Positions 2,280 to 36,755 of a stretch of 46,150 nt of DNA are shown here, piece after piece (position 1 is the stretch's first letter; each line of letters opens with the position of its first letter). A program made the translations under genes and the position numbers. Below the pieces are notes generated by a model that was not told the DNA's origin, did not search any database, and saw only the letters and a program-made list of their open reading frames with translations. The stretch lies in the IMG/VR virus record IMGVR_UViG_2695420763_000017, positions 1 to 46,150 of that record, one strand, 5' to 3'. Origin of the DNA: a virus (lineage: Duplodnaviria > Heunggongvirae > Uroviricota > Caudoviricetes).

Positions 2280-3281
2280 GTGACCGTGAGAGCACTACTG
2301 ACCCCTGAAATTGCCCCGCGTATGGGGATCGTATTGTTCAGGCCAGGTTCAGAGCTGATGCCCCTGTTTATGCAGGGGCGTGTCCTGCTGGAGCCTGAGC
2401 CGGAGCGTTATTCATCTTTCGCCAGTGGTGCCGTTCCGGCGGCATCACAACCGCTGGCGGATGATCCTGCCGTTCGGGCCGTGTTCCGCAATGAGGCAGT
2501 GATCCGTCGTGCTGGTGGCGTGGAATGTCTTGAAAGCTGGTTACTTCGTGAAAAAGGCTGCCAGTGGCCTCATTCCGACTGGCACAGCGAGAACATGACC
2601 ACAATGCGGCACGCGCCGGGCGCAATCCGTCTGTGCTGGCACTGCGATAACCAGTTGCGCGATCAGTTCACGGAACGGCTGGAATCAATGGCAACGGATA
2701 ACTGTGCCCGCTGGGTGTTATCTGTTGTGCGCCGTGATCTCGGTTTTGATGATAGTCACGTTGTGACAATGCCGGAACTGTGCTGGTGGCTGGTTCGTAA
2801 TGACCTGGCGGATGCCTTACCGGAAAGTGCAGCCCGTAAGGCACTGAGATTACCGAAGCCTGTTGTGCCGTCTGTCACCCGGGAAAGTGACCTTGTGCCT
2901 TCGGTTCCTGCCACCAGCATCATCCAGGATAAAGCGAAAAAGGTGCTGGCGCTGAAAGTGGATCCGGAGTCGCCGGAGTCTTTTATGTTACGCCCAAAAC
3001 GTCGCCGCTGGGTTAATGAAAAGTACACGCGCTGGGTTAAGACACAGCCGTGTGCATGTTGTGGAAAGCCTGCTGATGATCCCCACCACCTGATAGGTCA
3101 CGGTCAGGGTGGAATGGGAACAAAAGCGCATGACCTCTTTGTGTTGCCTTTGTGCAGAAAGCATCACGACGAGCTGCATGCGGATACCGTGGCATTTGAA
3201 GAGATGTATGGCTCCCAGCTGGAGCTGATATTTCGTTTTATCGATCGTGCGCTGGCGATCGGCGTAATTACGACAGCTTAA
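2280..3281 (+). CDS. DUF968-like lambdoid protein with C-terminal HNH-like Cys/His motif
   Basis: C-terminus CACCGKPADDPHHLIGHG...PLCRKHHDELH; position between nin genes and Q is typical; start GTG 2280 or 2286. Confidence 0.7.
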   Translation: MTVRALLTPEIAPRMGIVLFRPGSELMPLFMQGRVLLEPEPERYSSFASGAVPAASQPLADDPAVRAVFRNEAVIRRAGGVECLESWLLREKGCQWPHSDWHSENMTTMRHAPGAIRLCWHCDNQLRDQFTERLESMATDNCARWVLSVVRRDLGFDDSHVVTMPELCWWLVRNDLADALPESAARKALRLPKPVVPSVTRESDLVPSVPATSIIQDKAKKVLALKVDPESPESFMLRPKRRRWVNEKYTRWVKTQPCACCGKPADDPHHLIGHGQGGMGTKAHDLFVLPLCRKHHDELHADTVAFEEMYGSQLELIFRFIDRALAIGVITTA

Positions 3282-3302
3282 GTGTATGGAGCGCTGAGAA
3301 GT

Positions 3303-3992
3303 ATGAATCAACAAGACTTGAATTTTGTCAGAATAGAATTACGTCGTGCGCTGTTTGACTTCTCTGGGGGGACAAAAGGGCAGCTTGAGGCTTTCACTGA
3401 ACACCCACCAGCAGACAAAAATGCCACTCCACGCCGTGGAATTCATCTTGTCGAACTCGAAGGTGATAAGGGACCACGCTTTGTTAACTCGCTTTCCGCG
3501 CCATTGTACGTGCAAGAAACACGTAGCCGCCCCAGGCCAATGCCGCCGATAAAAGATGTAGAATTTGAGTCCGCGCCGTGGCGTAGGGCAGTGTCCGCGC
3601 TTAGTGGATACCAGCAGGCTTGGTTGCGGTACTGTTACGGTTTTGACCTTAACTATACGCACCAGGTGATGATGTGTGAATACGTCTGGAAGGCTTATCA
3701 GAAATGCTTGGGTGAAAACTCACTTCAGGAGCGCGTAGTAAAAAAACTAATAGGCCTAGTATGGCTTGCAGGACAGGAAATTGCTGCAACCCGAAACAAT
3801 GAAACCTATAAAGACTACGCTGGTGCGGCGCTGGCCCGTATGGTTAGCGTTGACCGTTCGACATGGTTGCGCGTCTATTCAGGCCACTGGGCTGGGTTAA
3901 AGGCCGCTTTTACCCAGCTTGATGAGTCTGCGCTGGCCATGGCTCTTGAATACTATGAGGATGAAGAAGCTCTCAAAGTGGGAGAAATATGA
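3303..3992 (+). CDS. late-gene antiterminator Q-like protein
   Basis: Position directly upstream of a promoter-like site and a strong terminator, followed by lysis genes; sequence resembles the phage antitermination Q family as I recall it (not verified); alternative GTG start at 3282. Confidence 0.55.
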   Translation: MNQQDLNFVRIELRRALFDFSGGTKGQLEAFTEHPPADKNATPRRGIHLVELEGDKGPRFVNSLSAPLYVQETRSRPRPMPPIKDVEFESAPWRRAVSALSGYQQAWLRYCYGFDLNYTHQVMMCEYVWKAYQKCLGENSLQERVVKKLIGLVWLAGQEIAATRNNETYKDYAGAALARMVSVDRSTWLRVYSGHWAGLKAAFTQLDESALAMALEYYEDEEALKVGEI

Positions 3993-6336: not shown

Positions 6337-6869
6337 CAGCGGTCTTTGCTTTTGTTCAGGCGCGGTGGAAAACAATCATTGTTTTGCTGATGTTGGCTGG
6401 TGCATTTCTTGCCGGGAACATCTGGAGTGAGCGGGGCTGGCAAAAGAAGTGGGCTGACCACAATAGCATGGAATCTTCACAGGAAGCGAACGCGCAGACT
6501 GCCGCACGCTGGATTGAACAAGGGCGCATAATTGCCCGTGATGAGGCTGTAAAAGATGCACAAGCACAAGCCGCTAAATCTGCTGCCACTGCTGCTGGCC
6601 TGTCTGCCACTGTTAGCCAGTTGCGTACCGAAGCAACAAAGCTTGCCGCACGCCTGGACGCCGCAAAGCACACCGCTGATCTTGCCGCTGCCGTCCGAAG
6701 CAAAACAACCGACGCCGACGCCGGAATGTTCGCCGACATGCTCGGAGATATTGCAGCAGAAGCTAAACGTTATGCTGGAATCGCTGACGAACGCTACACC
6801 GCCGGGATGACGTGTGAACGTATTTACGACTCGTTGAGAGAGTCAAATAACGCTATCCCCCACAATTGA
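6333..6869 (+). CDS. Rz: i-spanin (Rz-like)
   Basis: N-terminal TM helix then Ala/Gln-rich coiled-coil periplasmic domain; immediately after the endolysin. Confidence 0.75.
6556..6810 (+). CDS. Rz1: o-spanin lipoprotein (Rz1-like), embedded in Rz in the +1 frame
   Basis: ATG 6556; signal peptide with lipobox LLAC/LASC; proline-rich mature part; wholly nested in Rz in another frame. Confidence 0.65.
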
Positions 6870-8013: not shown

Positions 8014-8508
8014 ATGGCTGGAACGGCGGGGCGTTCCGGGCGTCGCCCCAAGCCAACGGCGCGCAAGGCGCTGGCCGGAAACCCCGGCAAGCGAGCCCTG
8101 AACAAAGATGAACCTGTTTTTACGCCCATCAAAGGTGTTGAGCCACCAGAGTGGTTCGCTGAAGAAGATCTCCCTCTCGCCACGATCATGTGGCAACTGA
8201 CAACCAAAGAACTCTGCGGTCAGGGCCTGCTGTGCGTGACTGACCTGGCGGTACTTGAGCGGTGGTGCGTGGCCTATGAGTTCTGGCGACGTGCCGTGAA
8301 AAATATTGCCATACAGGGCAACACCATCACCGGTGCAATGGGCGGCAGGGTCAAAAATCCGGAGCTGACCGCCAAAAAAGAACAGGAGTCCGAGATGAGC
8401 AGCACGGGGGCAATGCTCGGACTCGACCCCAGCAGCCGCCAGCGTCTGATTGGCCTGGCGGGGCAGAAGAAAGCCACTAACCCGTTTCTGAAAATTATCG
8501 AATCATGA
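8014..8508 (+). CDS. terminase small subunit (P27-family-like)
   Basis: AGGAG RBS 8 nt upstream of ATG 8014; basic N-terminus; stop overlaps TerL start (ATGA). Confidence 0.8.
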
Positions 8509-10238
8509 GCCGGAAATCTTACCCCAACGTAAATGCTGCAAATCAGTATGCCCGGGATGTCGTGCGCGGAAAGATTGTTGCCTGCCAGTTTGTGATTCAG
8601 GCCTGCCAGCGCCATCTTGATGACCTGATGGCGGAAAAAAGTAAGTCGTTTCGTTACCGCTTCGACAAGGACCTGGCTGAACGGGCCGCGAAATTTATTC
8701 AGCTGTTGCCGCACACCAAGGGGGAGTGGGCATTCAAACGGATGCCCATCACGCTGGAGCCGTGGCAGCTCTTTGTGATCTGCTGTGCGTTTGGCTGGGT
8801 CAATAAAGGCACCCGGTTGCGCCGCTTCCGGGAGGTGTACACCGAAATCCCCCGTAAGAACGGCAAATCAGCAATCTCTGCCGGTGTTGCCCTGTATTGT
8901 TTTGCCTGTGATAACGAGTTTGGCGCGGAAGTGTATTCCGGTGCCACGACAGAGAAACAGGCGTGGGAAGTCTTTCGCCCGGCGCGACTGATGTGTAAAC
9001 GCACACCCATGCTGACGGAAGCGTTCGGGATTGAGGTTAACGCCTCAAACATGAACCGTCCGGAGGATGGCGCGCGGTTTGAACCGCTGATCGGCAACCC
9101 AGGTGATGGTTCATCACCCCACTGTGCCGTGGTTGATGAATATCACGAGCATGCCACCGATGCGCTTTATACCACAATGCTTACCGGGATGGGGGCGCGA
9201 CGTCAGCCACTGATGTGGGCCATCACCACCGCCGGGTACAACATTGAGGGGCCGTGCTACGACAAGCGGCGGGAAGTCATCGAGATGCTCAACGGCTCGG
9301 TGCCTAACGATGAACTGTTCGGGATCATCTATACCGTTGATGAAGGTGACGACTGGACTGACCCGCAGGTGCTGGAAAAAGCCAATCCAAATATTGGCGT
9401 GTCGGTTTATCGCGAATTTTTGTTAAGTCAGCAGCAGCGTGCGAAAAATAACGCCCGTCTGGCAAACGTCTTTAAAACAAAACACCTCAATATCTGGGTG
9501 TCGGCGCGTTCGGCGTATTTCAACCTGGTGAGCTGGCAGAGCTGCGAGGATAAATCACTGACCCTTGAGCAGTTCGAGGGGCAGCCGTGCATTCTGGCCT
9601 TTGACCTGGCTCGTAAGCTGGATATGAACAGCATGGCGCGACTTTATACCCGCGAGATTGACGGTAAAACGCATTACTACAGTGTGGCCCCGCGCTTCTG
9701 GGTACCGTATGACACGGTGTACAGCGTCGAGAAAAATGAAGATAGACGGACAGCCGAACGCTTTCAGAAATGGGTGGAAATGGGCGTCCTGACCGTTACC
9801 GATGGTGCAGAGGTGGATTATCGCTACATCCTCGAGGAGGCCAAAGCGGCGAACAAAATCAGCCCGGTCAGTGAGTCACCCATCGACCCCTTCGGGGCGA
9901 CCGGGCTGTCACATGACCTTGCTGATGAAGATCTGAATCCCGTCACTATCGTCCAGAACTTCGCCAATATGTCCGATCCGATGAAAGAGCTGGAAGCAGC
10001 GATTGAATCGGGACGCTTTCATCATGACGGCAATCCCATCATGACCTGGTGTATCGGCAATGTGGTCGGCAAAAACATGCCAGGTAACGATGATTTAGTG
10101 AAGCCCGTCAAGGAGCAGGCGGAAAACAAAATCGATGGTGCGGTTGCACTGATTATGACGATCGGTCGGGCAATGCTCAAAGAACCTGACGATTTCCTCT
10201 CATCTCTTGATCCGGACGATGATCTCTTAATTCTATGA
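8505..10238 (+). CDS. terminase large subunit
   Basis: 577 aa; ATPase-like N-terminal half (KNGKSAIS Walker A-like) and nuclease-like C-terminal half; conserved position. Confidence 0.95.
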
Positions 10239-32947: not shown

Positions 32948-33075
32948 CTGGTTGAGTATACAGTAGTAGACTTTGAGCGACGAAAGAAAAGGCTGTGTCT
33001 AGGGTCGCTCCCGAAAATCCGTACACCTCGACGGACTGGTACAGCCACTACAGTAGAGGACGCTGAGGTGTGCGT

Positions 33076-34100: not shown

Positions 34101-34298
34101 ATGTCAAATACGCTTATTCGTTTAACAGAAGTTCAGCGTAGAACTGGATATAGCAAGGCATGGATTTATCGCCTTATGGGGCAAGGTAAATTTCCTGCAT
34201 CAGTTAAAATTGGCTCGCGAGCTATTGCTTTCGTTGAGAGTGAAATTGACGAGTGGATTAATCAGCGTATTGCGGAATCACGCGGAACAGCTACCTGA
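34101..34298 (+). CDS. alpA: AlpA-family transcriptional regulator / excisionase-like protein
   Basis: GAGG RBS; LIRLTEVQRRTGYSKAWIYRLMGQGKFPASVKIGSRAIAFVESEIDEWI matches the AlpA HTH family. Confidence 0.85.
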   Translation: MSNTLIRLTEVQRRTGYSKAWIYRLMGQGKFPASVKIGSRAIAFVESEIDEWINQRIAESRGTAT

Positions 34299-34375: not shown

Positions 34376-35176
34376 ATGAAATTTCCAAAAACGCCCGTAC
34401 AGGGGCGGGGCTTCGTTCGGCCTGAAAACCAGAATCTGCAAAATTTCGGCGAAATTATCCCGATTATTTCCGGCGTTATTGGCGGGAGTGAAACCACTAT
34501 TGTTAGCGCCAGAGCGTTACATAAGGCGTTAGGTGTAGGGCGCGTTTTCCGTTCGTGGATCAAGGGGCGCATTGAAGAATATGGGTTCACGGAAGGCGTG
34601 GATTATGAGGTTGTTGAATATTTGAGCCGACCCGATCCGGTGAGCGCAAAATCTCGCCAGCAAACCGCTCTTGAGTACATCATCACAGTGAACATGGCGA
34701 AAGAACTGGCGATGGTCGAACGTACCGAACAGGGCCGCGCCGTTCGCCAGTACTTTATCAAATGCGAGGAGGAGCTACACAAGGTTGCGCCTGTTCGTTC
34801 CGCAGCGTTACGCCGGGAACTGAAAGCCCGTATCACAGTTGCCAGCTACTTTAAGCCAATGTGTGCCGCGCTGGAGGCGTACCGGGCTGAACTGGGTAAA
34901 AACACACTCCAGCACCACTACACCACGGAAGCGAACATGCTGGCGCGTATCGTGCTGGGTGGCATGACTGCAAAACAGTGGGCACTGGCGAACGGCATTA
35001 CAGGCGAACCACGCGACCACATGAGTACGTTGCAGCTTGAGCACCTTTCTTACCTTGAGCAGAGCAATATCACGCTGATTGAGTTAGGCCAGGACTACCA
35101 CCAGCGGAAGGCTGAATTAATTCGTCTTTCGCAGCGTTGGTTAGCCCGTCGCATGGAGGAAAACAGCCATGTGTAA
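34376..35176 (+). CDS. phage antirepressor-like / regulatory protein
   Basis: AGGAG RBS; 266 aa; N-terminal domain resembles antirepressor/Rha-type regulators (inference from memory). Confidence 0.55.
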   Translation: MKFPKTPVQGRGFVRPENQNLQNFGEIIPIISGVIGGSETTIVSARALHKALGVGRVFRSWIKGRIEEYGFTEGVDYEVVEYLSRPDPVSAKSRQQTALEYIITVNMAKELAMVERTEQGRAVRQYFIKCEEELHKVAPVRSAALRRELKARITVASYFKPMCAALEAYRAELGKNTLQHHYTTEANMLARIVLGGMTAKQWALANGITGEPRDHMSTLQLEHLSYLEQSNITLIELGQDYHQRKAELIRLSQRWLARRMEENSHV

Positions 35177-35635
35177 CGCTCTGACCGTTACAAAAAGAGA
35201 AAGCGCCCCGTTGCCGGAGCGCCTTTGTGAACGAATAGCCTACTGCGCCATATTGCTTACTGTCTACGAGGCAGATTATAGCGTTGTGGTCGCACAGAGT
35301 GAAGGCGCTGATCACCGTTACTACAGCACGCCAGAAATGCAGAATATTTTGCTGCAAAATGTCGTTGGTCACACTGTCCGGAAAGCAAAAAATTTTGCTG
35401 GTGGCGCGACTGATGCGATTTTGTCAGGTCGCCAGGTGCTGATCAATCTGATGTCTGATTTCGTTCTGGATAAAACAAAGGCGACCGCAGAGGGCCGCCA
35501 GTGGGAAAGCTACATACCTGAACGCATCGCCAACAATGCCAGATTTACGGCTGGTGGGCAATGTGTCAGCTTTGCACCAATGACTCTATGTTTAACTGAG
35601 GGTCATTATGGTGAATATGCTGGCTTGCTGGTGGG

Positions 35636-35836
35636 CTATTCCTGCTCTTTAACATTGCCATGCCGCGATGTTTTCCAGGTATGCGACCCCATTTTTGTGC
35701 GCCTGTACTCTTTAAGGAATTTCTCAAGGACAAACGCACAGGGCGCGAATCTGTCTGACTCATGCTCGTACGCTATCTTTCTGCGCTGTCTTTTCCGTGC
35801 CGGTGATGGTGTATTGGTTGATTCTTTGTTGGTCAT
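35636..35836 (-). CDS. small hypothetical basic protein
   Basis: Minus-strand ORF downstream of the RHH gene; ends in the same ...KEQE-stop and shared 17-bp DNA repeat; could be non-coding. Confidence 0.3.
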   Translation of the reverse strand: MTNKESTNTPSPARKRQRRKIAYEHESDRFAPCAFVLEKFLKEYRRTKMGSHTWKTSRHGNVKEQE

Positions 35837-35893
35837 GGCGCTGCCCTGTAAAATAATGCACCGTAGTTCCTCACACCACGGCACCTATAGTGG

Positions 35894-36199
35894 TTATTCC
35901 TGCTCTTTAGCTTTGCGCCGCTGGAGTTCTTCACGCGCGACGGTGACGAGTTGCCCGATTTCCTCGGCAGCTTTGACTCCGATTTTTTCCACCTGCGCTA
36001 GGGCATCGAGCGAAGAAACCAGGGGATTTTCTCCGCTTCCTTCTGCCTGGCGGCGGGCGATTTCACCGCGAACGGCTGTAATCACGAAAGCGGCTATTGT
36101 TTCCCCTTCCGTTTTCGAATTTTCCATTTCCTCGATTACATCATGGGGGAAGCGGATATTTTTCATTTGCGATCTGCTGTTGATGTTTCCTGTTGCCAT
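35894..36199 (-). CDS. Arc/MetJ-type ribbon-helix-helix repressor-like protein
   Basis: KNIRFPHDVIEEMENSKTEGETIAAFVITAVRGEIARR fits a beta-strand plus two-helix RHH fold; transcribed leftward from the divergent region (alternative start 36166). Confidence 0.55.
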   Translation of the reverse strand: MATGNINSRSQMKNIRFPHDVIEEMENSKTEGETIAAFVITAVRGEIARRQAEGSGENPLVSSLDALAQVEKIGVKAAEEIGQLVTVAREELQRRKAKEQE

Positions 36200-36261
36200 C
36201 AGAATGTCCGGTTATTTTGAGGTGTGTACACATTACACCAAAAGGTGTGTTGATAAAACAC

Positions 36262-36291
36262 TTGACACTGTAGCACACTTAAATTTAATTT
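36262..36291 (+). promoter_or_regulatory. putative rightward early promoter within divergent operator region
   Basis: TTGACA (36262-36267), 17-18 nt spacer, TTAATT/TAATTT; flanked by GTGTACAC-type palindromes. Confidence 0.3.
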
Positions 36292-36389
36292 GTATACACA
36301 CCAATTGTTGTGGTGTATATACAGCAACGCCCCGCAGTGGTGGCACACATGCAGGGCGTCTAACCAAACCGTTAAACGAGGTAACGATT

Positions 36390-36755
36390 ATGGCTGGAAC
36401 ACAGCATACCCAAACTCACCCTAAATTTATATACACCTTCCTGGCGGTGCACCGTGATTGCATTGCTGACGGTAAAAACACTGTACACGTAGCCGCCGAT
36501 ACGCTGGTTGATGCCTGCGAGATGCTCAATGACATGGGCTATATCTCGGCAACATGGAAAGGGCGCGAAGAAAACACGCTGTTTATTCAGAAATGCGAAA
36601 ACAATTTTATCTGGCGTTTTATCGCCCTGAGTACGGCACAACCGCGCGTGATTCACATCGAGGCCACCAGCGAACAGGAAGCACGCCAGCAATCTCCTGA
36701 TGGCTGCGTGATGGTATTCGCTGCCCGTATTCGCCAGGAGGTGGAGCATGTGTAA
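36390..36755 (+). CDS. hypothetical protein, first gene of rightward operon
   Basis: GAGG RBS 8 nt upstream of ATG 36390; 121 aa; in-frame distal part of the long 35169-36755 open frame. Confidence 0.6.
   Translation: MAGTQHTQTHPKFIYTFLAVHRDCIADGKNTVHVAADTLVDACEMLNDMGYISATWKGREENTLFIQKCENNFIWRFIALSTAQPRVIHIEATSEQEARQQSPDGCVMVFAARIRQEVEHV

What the first reader, a model, noticed from the sequence alone, without database searches (positions are those of the whole stretch)
35636..36390. Divergent regulatory switch: leftward Arc-like RHH repressor operon and shared 17-bp repeat at two gene ends
Seen: minus-strand ORF 35894-36199 has an RHH-like N-terminus and is transcribed away from a palindrome-rich intergenic region (GTGTACAC-type repeats, 36200-36390) that also carries a rightward TTGACA promoter. 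A second minus-strand ORF (35636-35836) ends with the same KEQE-stop, encoded by a nearly identical 17-bp DNA repeat (35634-35650 and 35892-35908). Inference: the element's immunity switch; the repeat may be a duplicated gene end or a site for recombination or processing.
Basis: partly seen in the sequence, partly recalled or inferred. Interest (0 to 1): 0.45.

Follow-up and report, generated by a model that had tools for sequence, protein, structure and literature searches.

The report
Satellite control region with nested antisense genes
This is the on/off control region of a phage-parasitising island (a PICI satellite) in E. coli, where a small probable repressor gene sits backwards inside a long reading frame of the replication operon it appears to control; the 17-bp repeat is a recombination scar.

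Summary
The window holds an EcCICFT073-type PICI satellite integrated at tRNA-Thr.

- **ylcI (35894-36199, minus)** is a real YlcI/YnfO-family gene with a ribbon-helix-helix (RHH) fold.
- **Operators.** Its N-terminal residues co-vary, class for class over 78 loci, with 10-11-bp repeats. These repeats straddle two conserved back-to-back promoters. The rightward one (TTGACA 36262-67) drives an icd/kil-like to primase operon. YlcI is therefore the probable satellite repressor.
- **A long plus-strand frame.** ylcI, orf66 and the "intergenic" operators all lie inside a stop-free frame, 35169-36755. Its ATG overlaps the antA stop codon and it runs in frame into the Icd-like gene.
- **Conservation of that frame.** It stays open through ylcI in 18 of 18 fetched genomic loci, in about 72 of 73 viral-contig loci, in EcCICFT073 and in a Pasteurella satellite.
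- **P4 parallel.** P4 Eta carries the same Icd-like domain, so this is a P4 eta/kil-type nested gene. The CI (C4) RNA of P4 is absent; the antisense RHH gene occupies the same stretch of the long frame.
- **The repeat** (25 nt, 22/25 identical) bounds a 258-bp orf66 cassette. It is rare among relatives, so it is a scar, not a conserved site.

The parts
34101..34298 (+). alpA (AlpA/Vis-type HTH regulator), the upstream gene of the rightward read-through unit
   Evidence: Pfam Phage_AlpA 2.4e-19. RefSeq annotation.
34376..35176 (+). antA/antB (Bro-network) gene. Its stop codon is overlapped by the start codon of the long frame.
   Evidence: Pfam AntA 2.5e-23. The overlap reads ATGTGTAA.
35169..36755 (+). 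Long stop-free frame (528 codons from the ATG), Eta-like. It runs antisense through orf66 and ylcI, through the promoter/operator region, and in frame into the Icd/Kil-like gene.
   Evidence: ORF list. Open through ylcI in 18/18 genomic loci and about 72/73 viral-contig loci. Resampling and shuffle tests. 1378 database homologues at E <= 1e-5; the best-scoring ones are 379-598 aa and many are named Icd-like. C-terminal NF033153 domain shared with P4 Eta.
36390..36755 (+). Icd/Kil-like short form (121 aa) with its own Shine-Dalgarno (SD) sequence and ATG
   Evidence: NF033153 6e-23. Residues 3-22 align to P4 Eta 135-154. SD and ATG conserved in the aligned loci.
35894..36199 (-). ylcI: YlcI/YnfO-family RHH protein, the probable repressor
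35636..35836 (-). orf66: small basic ORF (phrog_21027) downstream of ylcI. Its coding status is not fully resolved.
   Evidence: phrog_21027 2.5e-32. Intact in 7 fetched loci with two C-terminal types. T-rich plus strand, consistent with a purine-rich minus coding strand. The strand test on codon positions was ambiguous.
35634..35658 (.). Left copy of the 25-nt direct repeat (3' end of orf66)
35892..35916 (.). Right copy of the 25-nt direct repeat (3' end of ylcI). The copies are 258 bp apart.
   Evidence: Single-copy junction in L019/L020.
35858..35884 (-). Terminator-like hairpin between ylcI and orf66
   Evidence: Consensus scan only.
35480..35499 (-). Intrinsic-terminator-like hairpin plus T run: likely end of the leftward ylcI(-orf66) unit
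   Evidence: The block 35469-35569 is conserved in L015, L018 and L019, and its 3' part in L016 and L020.
36221..36254 (.). Operator-like copies next to ylcI: GGTGTGTACAC at 36221-31, inverted ACATTACACC at 36231-40, GGTGTGTTGAT at 36244-54
   Evidence: Equivalent element-specific motifs at about +22 and +45 in other loci.
36230..36235 (-). Leftward -10 hexamer (TAATGT on the minus strand) for ylcI
   Evidence: A TAnnnT hexamer ends 29-30 nt before the ylcI ATG in 15 of 17 loci.
36262..36291 (+). Rightward promoter: -35 TTGACA at 36262-67, 18-nt spacer, -10 TAATTT at 36286-91
   Evidence: The -35 sits at the same offset in 16 of 18 loci, with a TAnnnT hexamer 17-18 nt downstream. The generic consensus scan did not score it.
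36292..36322 (.). Operator-like inverted pair over the -10/transcription-start region: GTATACACACC at 36292-302 and GGTGTATATAC at 36312-22
   Evidence: (I10).
36327..36366 (+). Conserved GC-rich leader hairpin followed by UCUAACCA
   Evidence: Present in all 18 loci with compensatory changes at 3 pairs. Single-sequence fold of the whole leader has z = -1.32.
36370..36386 (+). Small hairpin CGTTA/TAACG with the SD sequence GAGG (36378-81) in its loop, just before the icd ATG
   Evidence: The stem sequence changes in pairs between loci, by inspection.

Best explanation
The interval is the regulatory core of a Gram-negative PICI satellite of the EcCICFT073 type. It is built on the plan of the phage P4 eta/kil region, but with a protein repressor where P4 has an RNA.

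**Shown by computation**
1. ylcI encodes a real RHH protein with a long C-terminal helix.
2. Four to five element-specific 10-11-bp sites, about 23 bp apart, straddle two back-to-back promoters. One is the leftward ylcI promoter. The other is a conserved rightward TTGACA-N17/18-TAnnnT promoter for the operon icd/kil-like, small ORFs, DUF4222 and primase.
3. The site sequence tracks YlcI residues about 8-17, class by class.
4. A plus-strand frame starts at an ATG that overlaps the stop of the upstream gene. It stays open antisense through orf66, ylcI and the operators, and usually joins the Icd-like gene in frame.
5. The Icd-like domain is shared with P4 Eta/Kil.
6. The P4 immunity RNAs are absent.

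**Inferred**
- In the quiescent island, YlcI binds the operators, shuts the rightward promoter and autoregulates its own.
- When a helper phage induces AlpA, transcription from the alpA promoter reads through antA into the long frame.
- Ribosomes coupled from antA translate that frame. As with P4 eta on PLL transcripts, this would keep Rho from terminating the roughly 1.2 kb that would otherwise be untranslated.
- The replication operon would then be expressed regardless of YlcI, while antisense transcription through ylcI would lower repressor supply.

**The repeat**
The 25-nt repeat is the duplicated 3' end of ylcI. It marks the edges of a 258-bp, in-frame orf66 cassette gained or lost by recombination.
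For: **Element identity**
- RefSeq context is tRNA-Thr, int, alpA, antA, [orf66 and ylcI leftward], icd-like, DUF4222, DUF5906 primase, ProQ/FinO, PerC.
- EcCICFT073 has the same layout and a 434-codon plus frame.

**ylcI is real**
- NF041551 at 64 bits.
- pLDDT 80.5.
- Divergence ratio of codon positions 1 to 2 is 1.19, like alpA 1.22, primase 1.25 and icd 1.22.
- Conserved -10 and SD.
- T-rich plus strand over 35550-36250.

**Operators**
- The copies cluster at 36221-36437.
- The layout is conserved in 18 loci.
- There is a near one-to-one mapping between the N-terminal peptide and the 10-mer after the -35 across 78 loci. Examples: AKSQLTTVRV with TGTGTTTCAY (22 loci), A/TKSQSLTARI with TGTAAGCCAC (22), NKSQQLNARF with TGGTATTCAC (11), KSQMTTIRVP with TGTATATCAC (10).

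**Long frame**
- Open through ylcI in 18/18 loci, always in the frame whose third positions coincide with those of ylcI.
- Synonymous resampling gives P = 0.03-0.3 per locus for the full-length genes.
- The 189-nt promoter region is open in 11/16 loci, with shuffle P of 0.005-0.066 each. In four of the other five it closes 169-178 nt past the ylcI start, close to the icd start (20 nt before the annotated start in L016); L002 closes after 58 nt.
- Of 73 unique viral-contig loci, 72 stay open at least 160 nt past the ylcI start and 63 at least 350 nt.
- The start codon overlaps or abuts the upstream stop (ATGA, stop-ATG with a 1-nt overlap, ATGTGTAA) in most loci.
- The arrangement recurs in Pasteurella phage Pmp7.
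- As a control, the same frame at the DLP12 ylcI of K-12 closes 28 and 50 nt outside the gene.

**P4 link**
- P4 Eta residues 145-192 match NF033153 at 1.2e-20, as does the window protein.
- The kil-start peptides align.
- The P4 vis stop overlaps the eta ATGs.
- The mechanism is summarised in PMC10111431, citing Forti 1999.
- AlpA activates ORF3-lacZ, and AlpA overexpression gives pri-dependent replication in EcCICFT073 (PMC6092414).

**Repeat as a junction**.
Against: - There are no expression, binding or ribosome data of any kind. The promoters, operators and the anti-termination role are all inferred.
- The ylcI N-terminal codons lie within 100 bp of the operators. Their co-variation could therefore come from linkage within exchanged modules.
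- The loci are related and mosaic, so per-locus probabilities cannot simply be multiplied.
- With codons permuted within each gene, the per-locus probabilities rise to 0.15-0.65.
- The N-terminal 400 nt of the long frame shows no protein-level purifying selection. Substitutions by codon position are 20/10/9. This fits a translated spacer but equally fits no function for the peptide.
- Foldseek matches to Arc were not significant (E about 2.5), and Pfam RHH families are below threshold.
- The generic promoter scan did not score either promoter.
- One genomic locus (L002) and two viral-contig loci (L034, L083) have the frame broken.
Confidence: 0.6

Rival explanations
1. Only the minus-strand genes are real. 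The long plus frame is a shadow ORF, produced by the Tyr-free YlcI sequence and by composition, and gene callers and PGAP propagate it as 'Icd-like protein'.
For: - The plus frame shares third codon positions with ylcI, so it inherits its constraint (my frame arithmetic).
- The K-12 DLP12 ylcI also has that frame open within the gene.
- The N-terminal part of the long frame shows no coding-type substitution pattern.
- Given the orf66 protein, an open plus frame is unsurprising (P = 0.15-0.9).
Against: - The frame also stays open across the AT-rich promoter region (P = 0.005-0.066 per locus).
- It stays open for 100-860 nt beyond the ylcI stop.
- Its ATG overlaps or abuts the upstream stop codon in most loci.
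- Insertions and deletions are in frame (258 and 255 nt cassettes, a 3-nt gap).
- The arrangement holds from Enterobacterales to Pasteurella.
- P4 has an experimentally studied equivalent.
Confidence: 0.15
2. Only the long plus ORF (an Eta-like protein) is real, and ylcI and orf66 are spurious antisense ORFs.
For: - Many assemblies annotate the long ORF and not ylcI.
- PGAP labels plus-strand pseudogenes over the region.
- The Pmp7 record annotates only the long ORF.
- The strand test for orf66 is ambiguous.
Against: - YlcI matches a curated family that also occurs in lambdoid prophages in a different context.
- It has a confident RHH model.
- It has a normal ratio of position-1 to position-2 divergence for the minus frame.
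- It has a conserved SD and -10.
- The minus strand is purine-rich over this stretch.
- A specificity-matched repeat set lies next to it.
- The plus-frame peptide over this stretch is Cys-rich and repetitive and matches no family except at the Icd-like C-terminus.
Confidence: 0.05
3. The repeat is a functional site. Read on the plus strand, the left copy is TGCTCTTTAACAT, 12 of 13 matches to the rrn boxA (TGCTCTTTAACAA, consensus from my memory). It could recruit NusB/NusE to protect the rightward read-through transcript from Rho. Alternatively it could be a dedicated recombination or processing site.
For: - BoxA-like strings lie on the plus strand at 35643, 35706 and 35901.
- A read-through transcript that must resist Rho is exactly where a boxA would be useful (inference from the P4 model).
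- The left copy is better conserved between the window and L018 (23/26) than its surroundings (70%).
Against: - No boxA-like sequence occurs on that strand in the eight non-E. coli loci with the same architecture. Overall counts are 16 on plus and 11 on minus, near my estimate of the chance expectation.
- The string is simply the reverse complement of the codons for (A/V)-K-E-Q.
- Only 3 of 40 orf66-bearing relatives carry the repeat.
- The YlcI C-terminus varies across the family.
- This was noticed post hoc.
Confidence: 0.08
4. Immunity is RNA-based as in P4, P1 and P7. A small RNA from the leader would pair with repeated targets, and the GGTGTRTAYAC repeats would be RNA pairing sites, not protein operators.
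For: - The motif occurs in both orientations, including a perfect 10-nt complement between 36312-21 and 36428-37 inside the icd coding region (I9).
- The conserved leader hairpin has no assigned function.
- A candidate antisense sRNA lies at 35190-35268.
Against: - No C4, c4-a1b1 or isrK match appears in the window even at E <= 10, nor in 18 related loci at gathering score. P4 scores 74.9 bits for C4.
- Half of the motif copies lie upstream of the predicted rightward transcription start.
- The copies track the RHH N-terminal sequence.
- The copy inside icd is not conserved.
Confidence: 0.07

Closest known systems
Phage-plasmid P4 left-operon control region: vis(orf88)-eta/kil nested genes, promoters PLL/PLE, CI RNA, Rho-dependent terminator timm (Forti et al. 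1999, as summarised in PMC10111431)
   Same: - The gene order is collinear: alpA/vis-type gene, then a long ORF whose 3' part is a short Icd/Kil-like gene, then small ORFs, then the primase.
- The NF033153 domain is shared, and the kil-start peptide and DNA are similar.
- The long-ORF start is coupled to the upstream stop.
- A promoter lies inside the long ORF.
   Different: - P4 carries the CI (Rfam C4) RNA plus isrK/seqA-type targets inside eta. This element and 18 relatives have none.
- Instead they carry an RHH protein gene antisense inside the long ORF, with DNA operators.
- The long ORF is 330-580 codons here against 198 in P4.
- No psu, sid or delta genes are annotated in the island.
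Gram-negative PICIs, model EcCICFT073 (Fillol-Salom et al. 2018, PMC6092414; zone scheme in PMC10111431)
   Same: - EcCICFT073 has the same gene order, including orf66-like, a 59-aa YlcI and Icd-like, and a 434-codon plus frame.
- AlpA is the helper-induced activator there.
   Different: - The literature I could search states that a global repressor in Gram-negative PICIs is unclear.
- It describes immunity RNAs in the Bro zone.
- It does not mention YlcI, RHH or the antisense nesting.
P22 immI region (Arc and Mnt RHH repressors controlling Pant; from my own knowledge)
   Same: Small RHH repressor or repressors, divergent promoters with overlapping operators, and an antirepressor-family gene in the neighbourhood.
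   Different: - There is no detectable sequence relationship to Arc. The Foldseek match has E about 2.5.
- YlcI has an extra 45-residue C-terminal helix.
- The target operon here is icd/kil to primase, not ant.
- P22 has no overlapping long ORF.
P1/P7 immI (c4 RNA-icd-ant; from my own knowledge)
   Same: An Icd-family cell-division inhibitor is the first translated gene of a tightly controlled operon, next to an antirepressor-family gene.
   Different: Control in P1 is by the c4 antisense RNA. No C4-family RNA is present here.
YlcI (DLP12) and YnfO (Qin) of E. coli K-12
   Same: They share the N-terminal YlcI_YnfO_N domain.
   Different: - The K-12 ylcI is 64 aa and lies divergent from nohD near the packaging genes.
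- It has no long antisense frame beyond the gene.
- I found no study that assigns it a function.

Membership tests
YlcI/YnfO family (NCBIfam NF041551) | N-terminal 42-residue domain scoring above the curated cut-off | tested here: met
   64.2 bits against a cut-off of 30, residues 9-50. phrog_6522 matches the full length at 9e-49.
Ribbon-helix-helix (Arc/MetJ/CopG) DNA-binding proteins | N-terminal strand followed by two helices, superposable on solved RHH domains | tested here: met
Ribbon-helix-helix (Arc/MetJ/CopG) DNA-binding proteins | Sequence-profile membership in a curated RHH family | tested here: inconclusive
   PF07704 (an RHH-clan family, from my knowledge) scores 18.8 bits against a cut-off of 28.3. 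16 of 25 relatives give the same weak match. Foldseek matches to Arc have E about 2.5. The PDB profile search found nothing relevant.
Ribbon-helix-helix (Arc/MetJ/CopG) DNA-binding proteins | Dimerises and binds repeated operator half-sites | not testable with these tools
   Indirect only: clustered repeats that co-vary with the N-terminal peptide.
Icd/Kil-like cell-division inhibitor (NCBIfam NF033153) | 48-residue domain scoring above the curated cut-off | tested here: met
   80.6 bits against a cut-off of 25, residues 73-116 of the short form. The same domain is found in P4 Eta 145-192. Inhibition of division was not tested.
P4-type eta/kil nested-gene control | The short gene is the in-frame 3' part of a longer ORF that begins next to the upstream alpA/vis-side gene | tested here: met
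   35169-36755 contains 36390-36755 in frame, and its ATG overlaps the antA stop. The same holds in most relatives.
P4-type eta/kil nested-gene control | A promoter internal to the long ORF drives the short form | tested here: inconclusive
   The conserved TTGACA-N17/18-TAnnnT sits at a fixed position. No transcript data exist, and the generic scan did not score it.
P4-type eta/kil nested-gene control | Immunity by CI (C4-family) RNA pairing with seqA/seqC targets | tested here: not met
   No C4, c4-a1b1 or isrK match in the window at E <= 10, nor in 18 related loci at gathering score. The P4 positive control scored 74.9 bits.
P4-type eta/kil nested-gene control | Translation of the long ORF prevents Rho-dependent termination | not testable with these tools
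   Inferred from the conserved open frame and the start-codon coupling.
P4-like satellite (core set int, alpA, alpha, epsilon, psu, sid, delta; de Sousa and Rocha, PMC8628076) | Presence of psu, sid and delta | tested here: not met
   None is annotated in the 14 kb of island covered. PHROG scans of the downstream ORFs found none. The right end of the island lies outside the window.
Gram-negative PICI (PMC6092414, PMC10111431) | The order int, alpA, Bro zone, primase/replication zone, integrated at a specific site | tested here: met
   tRNA-Thr, int, alpA, antA, then DUF4222, DUF5906 primase and PerC. The layout matches EcCICFT073. Helper-dependent induction was not tested.
BoxA (NusB/NusE) antitermination element | A boxA consensus on the transcribed strand, conserved among relatives | tested here: not met
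   A 12/13 match lies at 35643-35655, but none occurs in the non-E. coli loci and there is no overall enrichment.

The most novel reading that the evidence does not exclude
YlcI is the missing master repressor of Gram-negative PICIs. Its gene and the Eta-like frame form a conserved pair of fully nested, antisense, both-translated genes. The pair works as a mutually exclusive switch. Leftward expression of ylcI silences the icd-primase promoter. AlpA-driven rightward transcription, kept alive by translation of the frame that overlaps ylcI, bypasses that repression and at the same time interferes with ylcI expression.
Probability: 0.35. Interest if true: 0.75.

Novelty: new variant of a known kind. 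Interest (0 to 1): 0.6.

Why it matters
- **A candidate for an open question.** The founding paper on Gram-negative PICIs says it is unclear whether these islands have a global repressor (PMC6092414). This analysis points to a specific, widespread candidate that is also present in the model island EcCICFT073. It comes with predicted operators and with natural specificity classes that can be swapped to test it.
- **A variant of a studied mechanism.** The P4 eta/kil logic, where translation of a long frame protects a read-through transcript, appears to be conserved well beyond P4. Here a protein occupies the place where P4 has its immunity RNA, and its gene is embedded antisense in the frame.
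- **An unusual gene arrangement.** Conserved antisense-nested coding of about 300 nt, held from Enterobacterales to Pasteurellaceae, is uncommon in bacteria.
- **An annotation conflict explained.** The same DNA is labelled YlcI, a 379-598-aa "Icd-like protein", a pseudogene or a "transcriptional repressor" in different records. This analysis accounts for all four labels.
- **How common it is.** DNA similar to the locus occurs in roughly a quarter to a third of complete E. coli genomes.

Tried and rejected
- **Rfam.** Only the int-alpA RNA reached gathering score in the window. A permissive scan of 35000-37000 gave two chance-level hits, R1162 antisense RNA at 17.9 bits and an IRES. The idea of a C4/CI RNA upstream of icd was therefore dropped, with P4 as the positive control.
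- **PDB sequence-profile search.** Nothing relevant.
- **tblastn against phage genomes.** Icd-like and YlcI each gave a single hit. P4 was missed by BLAST, and the link came only through the NCBIfam profile.
- **Homology beyond the repeat.** The similarity stops at about 33 nt; the flanks score as shuffles do (P = 0.35). orf66 is therefore not a diverged copy of ylcI.
- **Strand test for orf66 by codon-position divergence.** Ambiguous: 0.127/0.139/0.277.
- **Resampling for orf66.** Uninformative.
- **Protein-level selection in the N-terminal part of the long frame.** None seen.
- **BoxA reading of the repeat.** Not conserved.
- **GC skew as a sign of Rho-loading sites.** Only weak.
- **Generic promoter scan.** Missed both promoters that comparison supports.
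- **Forti 1999.** PMC94026 is not held, so P4 facts are cited through PMC10111431.
Full report
**1. What the window is**

The DNA is E. coli chromosome. The region 35400-36800 matches 1337 of 5426 complete genomes, 11 of them at 99.7% over the full length.

In the RefSeq record of strain E189 the order is proBA, tRNA-Thr, integrase, a hypothetical gene, an AlpA-type HTH gene and antA/antB. Then come two leftward genes, a 66-aa hypothetical and a YlcI/YnfO family protein. After them, rightward, come an Icd-like protein, four small ORFs, DUF4222, a DUF5906 primase, ProQ/FinO and PerC.

This is the published layout of a Gram-negative phage-inducible chromosomal island (PICI): integration zone, Bro zone, replication zone (PMC10111431). 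The model island EcCICFT073 has the same gene order through this region, including a 59-aa YlcI and an orf66-like gene.

**2.

- Both minus-strand ORFs exist and both end in KEQE-stop.
- The repeat is 16/17 at the stated coordinates and 22/25 over 35634-35658 and 35892-35916, with a 15-nt exact core.
- The core is far above chance: none of 100 shuffles gave three matches.
- The GGTGTRTnnAC motif has its only three perfect copies in 46 kb within 36221-36322. Six of its 15 near-copies lie within 217 nt.
- TTGACA is at 36262-36267.

**3. ylcI is a real RHH gene**

- It matches NCBIfam YlcI_YnfO_N at 64 bits against a cut-off of 30.
- The database search returned 138 relatives at E <= 0.001, mostly about 100 aa, across Enterobacterales.
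- Their alignment shows an RHH-like pattern and almost no tyrosine.
- The AlphaFold model (pLDDT 80.5) has an extended N-terminal segment, helices at 19-28 and 35-54, and a long helix at 59-100.
- Across 17 loci the divergence at minus-frame codon positions 1, 2 and 3 is 0.240, 0.201 and 0.531. The ratio of position 1 to position 2 is 1.19, like the controls alpA (1.22), primase (1.25) and icd (1.22). If only the plus frame were coding, this ratio should invert, because plus position 1 is minus position 2.
- A GGAG-type Shine-Dalgarno sequence (SD) and a TAnnnT hexamer ending 29-30 nt before the ATG are conserved.
- The plus strand is T-rich over 35550-36250, which fits a purine-rich minus coding strand.

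**4. The promoter and operator layout**

In 18 loci from six genera the same plan recurs after the ylcI start:

- element-specific 9-11-nt motif copies near +22, +45, +68 and +90;
- a -35 hexamer (TTGACA or TTGACG) at about +61;
- a TAnnnT hexamer 17-18 nt further on.

In the window these are copies at 36221-31, 36231-40, 36244-54, 36292-302 and 36312-22. The leftward -10 is at 36230-35, the rightward -35 at 36262-67 and the rightward -10 at 36286-91.

The motif changes from element to element together with YlcI residues about 8-17. Over 78 loci the mapping is nearly one-to-one:

| YlcI residues 8-17 | 10-mer after the -35 | loci |
|---|---|---|
| AKSQLTTVRV | TGTGTTTCAY | 22 |
| A/TKSQSLTARI | TGTAAGCCAC | 22 |
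| NKSQQLNARF | TGGTATTCAC | 11 |
| KSQMTTIRVP | TGTATATCAC | 10 |

Xenorhabdus/Photorhabdus and E. coli elements that share the peptide also share the motif. This is what a repressor with its operators would show. Because peptide and sites lie within 100 bp of each other, co-inheritance is an alternative reading.

**5. The region is not intergenic in the plus frame**

- The frame 35169-36755 (528 codons from the ATG) is open through orf66, ylcI and the promoter region. It is the frame of the Icd-like gene.
- Its third codon positions coincide with those of ylcI (my arithmetic).
- The same relative frame is open through the whole of ylcI in all 18 genomic loci, with total lengths of 150-537 codons.
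- Synonymous resampling of each full-length ylcI gives an open frame with probability 0.03-0.3. Permuting codons within the gene gives 0.15-0.65.
- The 189 nt after the ylcI start are open in 11 of 16 loci, where shuffles give 0.005-0.066. In four of the other five loci the frame closes 169-178 nt after the ylcI start, close to the icd start (20 nt before the annotated start in L016). L002 closes after 58 nt.
- In most loci the first ATG of the frame overlaps or abuts the stop of the preceding rightward gene. Examples are ATGTGTAA in the window, L017 and L018, ATGA in L005, and a 1-nt overlap of stop and ATG in L004, L006, L008 and L009.
- Of 73 non-identical IMG/VR loci, chosen by YlcI similarity and not by ORF intactness, 72 keep the frame open at least 160 nt past the ylcI start. 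63 keep it open at least 350 nt, into icd. One has a stop inside ylcI.
- EcCICFT073 has a 434-codon frame.
- Pasteurella phage Pmp7 has a 59-aa YlcI-like ORF antisense inside a 224-aa ORF with an Icd-like C-terminus.
- Public databases hold 1378 homologues of the long ORF at E <= 1e-5. The best-scoring ones are 379-598 aa, and many are named "Icd-like protein". PGAP sometimes labels the stretch a pseudogene.
- As a control, at the DLP12 ylcI of K-12 the same frame closes 28 and 50 nt outside the gene.
- The first 400 nt of the window's long frame differ from L017 at codon positions 1, 2 and 3 by 20, 10 and 9 substitutions. The peptide there is therefore not under selection, only the openness of the frame.

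**6. Link to P4**

- The P4 Eta ORF (198 aa) carries the NF033153 Icd-like domain at residues 145-192, as does the window protein.
- The window's Icd-like N-terminus aligns to Eta 135-154. That is next to the ATG that follows the P4 Shine-Dalgarno sequence, which I take to be the kil start.
- The stop of P4 vis overlaps the eta start codons.
- PMC10111431, citing Forti et al. 1999, describes the mechanism. A constitutive promoter inside eta gives a transcript that is terminated through the CI RNA. Kil is the truncated product. Full-length Eta is translated only from an upstream late promoter and is coupled to the alpA homologue. Its translation prevents termination.
- P4 scores 74.9 bits for Rfam C4, plus isrK and c4-a1b1. 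The window has none at E <= 10, and 18 related loci have none at gathering score.
- So the nested eta/kil plan is kept, while an antisense RHH gene occupies the stretch that in P4 holds the immunity RNA.

**7. Proposed mechanism**

This section is inference, except where a call is cited.

- In the quiescent island, YlcI binds the sites over both promoters, possibly as a dimer of dimers through its long C-terminal helix. It would repress the icd-to-primase promoter and its own.
- A helper phage induces alpA, and AlpA activates its own promoter and ORF3-lacZ. AlpA overexpression gives excision and pri-dependent replication in EcCICFT073 (PMC6092414).
- The read-through transcript crosses antA into the long frame. 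Coupled translation would keep Rho off the 1.2 kb that are antisense to orf66 and ylcI.
- The replication operon would then be expressed whatever the state of the internal promoter. This parallels P4 PLL transcripts, which read through because eta is translated.
- Antisense transcription through ylcI would at the same time reduce repressor synthesis.

**8. The repeat**

- L019 and L020 lack orf66. They carry one repeat copy whose left flank is that of the window's left copy and whose right flank is that of the right copy.
- The window therefore differs by a 258-bp segment bounded by the repeat.
- L018, only 70% identical, has both copies 255 bp apart. Both spacings keep the plus frame.
- Similarity stops after about 33 nt.
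- The left junction of the window type occurs at 80% coverage or more in 116 complete E. coli genomes. The single-copy junction occurs in 43.
- Among 60 viral-contig loci with enough sequence, 40 have orf66 and only 3 of those have the repeat. Most orf66 alleles end differently, in TKSD or TEPD.
- The repeat is thus a duplicated ylcI 3' end at a mosaic junction, not a conserved site.

**9. orf66**

- It is intact in seven fetched loci. It starts 58 nt after the ylcI stop and has a conserved basic N-terminus and an ERFAPC motif.
- It matches phrog_21027.
- It lies on the purine-rich minus strand.
- The codon-position strand test is ambiguous.
- I treat it as a probable gene of unknown function. 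A terminator-like hairpin at 35480-35499 on the minus strand probably ends the leftward unit.

**10. Novelty and limits**

- I found no paper that assigns YlcI/YnfO a function.
- None of the retrieved PICI and satellite papers uses the term ribbon-helix-helix.
- The 2018 PICI paper calls the existence of a repressor unclear.
- The 2023 paper describes immunity RNAs, not this protein or the nesting.
- Everything functional here is inferred from sequence comparison.
- The loci are related and mosaic, and the codon-usage table used was entered from memory.

Noticed in passing
window 35190-35303, minus strand: Candidate small RNA of about 75 nt. It has a promoter-like TTCACT-17-TATAAT (35303..35275) and a strong terminator hairpin (35225..35200) with a U run; the fold has z = -2.45. 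The -10 and the terminator are conserved in L016, L017, L019 and L020, where the -10 reads TGATATAAT in three of them, although the spacer varies. It is antisense to the 5' part of the long plus frame. No Rfam match.
   Followed up: partly
window 36327-36366, plus strand: A GC-rich hairpin followed by UCUAACCA in the leader of the Icd-like gene. It is present in all 18 related loci, with compensatory changes at three pairs. Its function is unknown. The tail is C/A-rich and G-poor, so a Rho-loading or processing role is possible.
   Followed up: partly
window 35643-35655, plus strand (also 35706 and 35901): The left repeat copy reads TGCTCTTTAACAT on the plus strand, 12 of 13 matches to the rrn boxA consensus as I remember it. 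It is not conserved in the non-E. coli loci, so it is probably a by-product of the K-E-Q codons.
   Followed up: yes
window 32992-33059, plus strand: Rfam int-alpA RNA motif (RF02996, 45.5 bits against a gathering score of 35.8) between the integrase gene and the next ORF. The same motif occurs in L005, L006, L008 and L009.
   Followed up: no
window 35300-35560: A block about 97% identical between the window and L017, better conserved than the flanking coding DNA. It contains the inverted repeat 35339-35353 / 35384-35398 and the leftward terminator. Parts of it are shared with L015, L016, L018, L019 and L020.
   Followed up: partly
window 36312-36321 and 36428-36437: A perfect 10-nt inverted repeat (GGTGTATATA / TATATACACC) links the last operator copy to codons 13-16 of the Icd-like gene. 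The downstream copy is not conserved in relatives.
   Followed up: partly
L014 (P4) 8168-8584; L021 (Pmp7) 3083-3757; phrog_6196 and phrog_1743: The label 'transcriptional repressor' on Icd/Eta-like ORFs in PHROGs and in phage records probably descends from the early P4 'cI gene product' ORF annotation. P4 immunity is now attributed to the CI RNA, so the label is likely misleading.
   Followed up: partly
L012 (E. coli 95NR1) 2744-3688: A related island keeps orf66-like DNA and the Icd-like gene but lacks ylcI and its operators; about 235 nt replace about 427 nt. It has no C4 RNA either, so its mode of control is unclear.
   Followed up: no
L024 (EcCICFT073) 6474-6653; L018 2874-3071; L021 3501-3680: Short YlcI forms (59-65 aa) keep the RHH domain and, in EcCICFT073 and L018, the RRKAKEQE-type tail, but lack the long C-terminal helix. 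The oligomerisation part therefore appears dispensable or variable.
   Followed up: no
window 40230-41044: The island encodes a ProQ/FinO-family RNA-binding protein directly upstream of a PerC-family regulator. Whether it acts on the structured icd leader or on the candidate small RNA was not examined.
   Followed up: no
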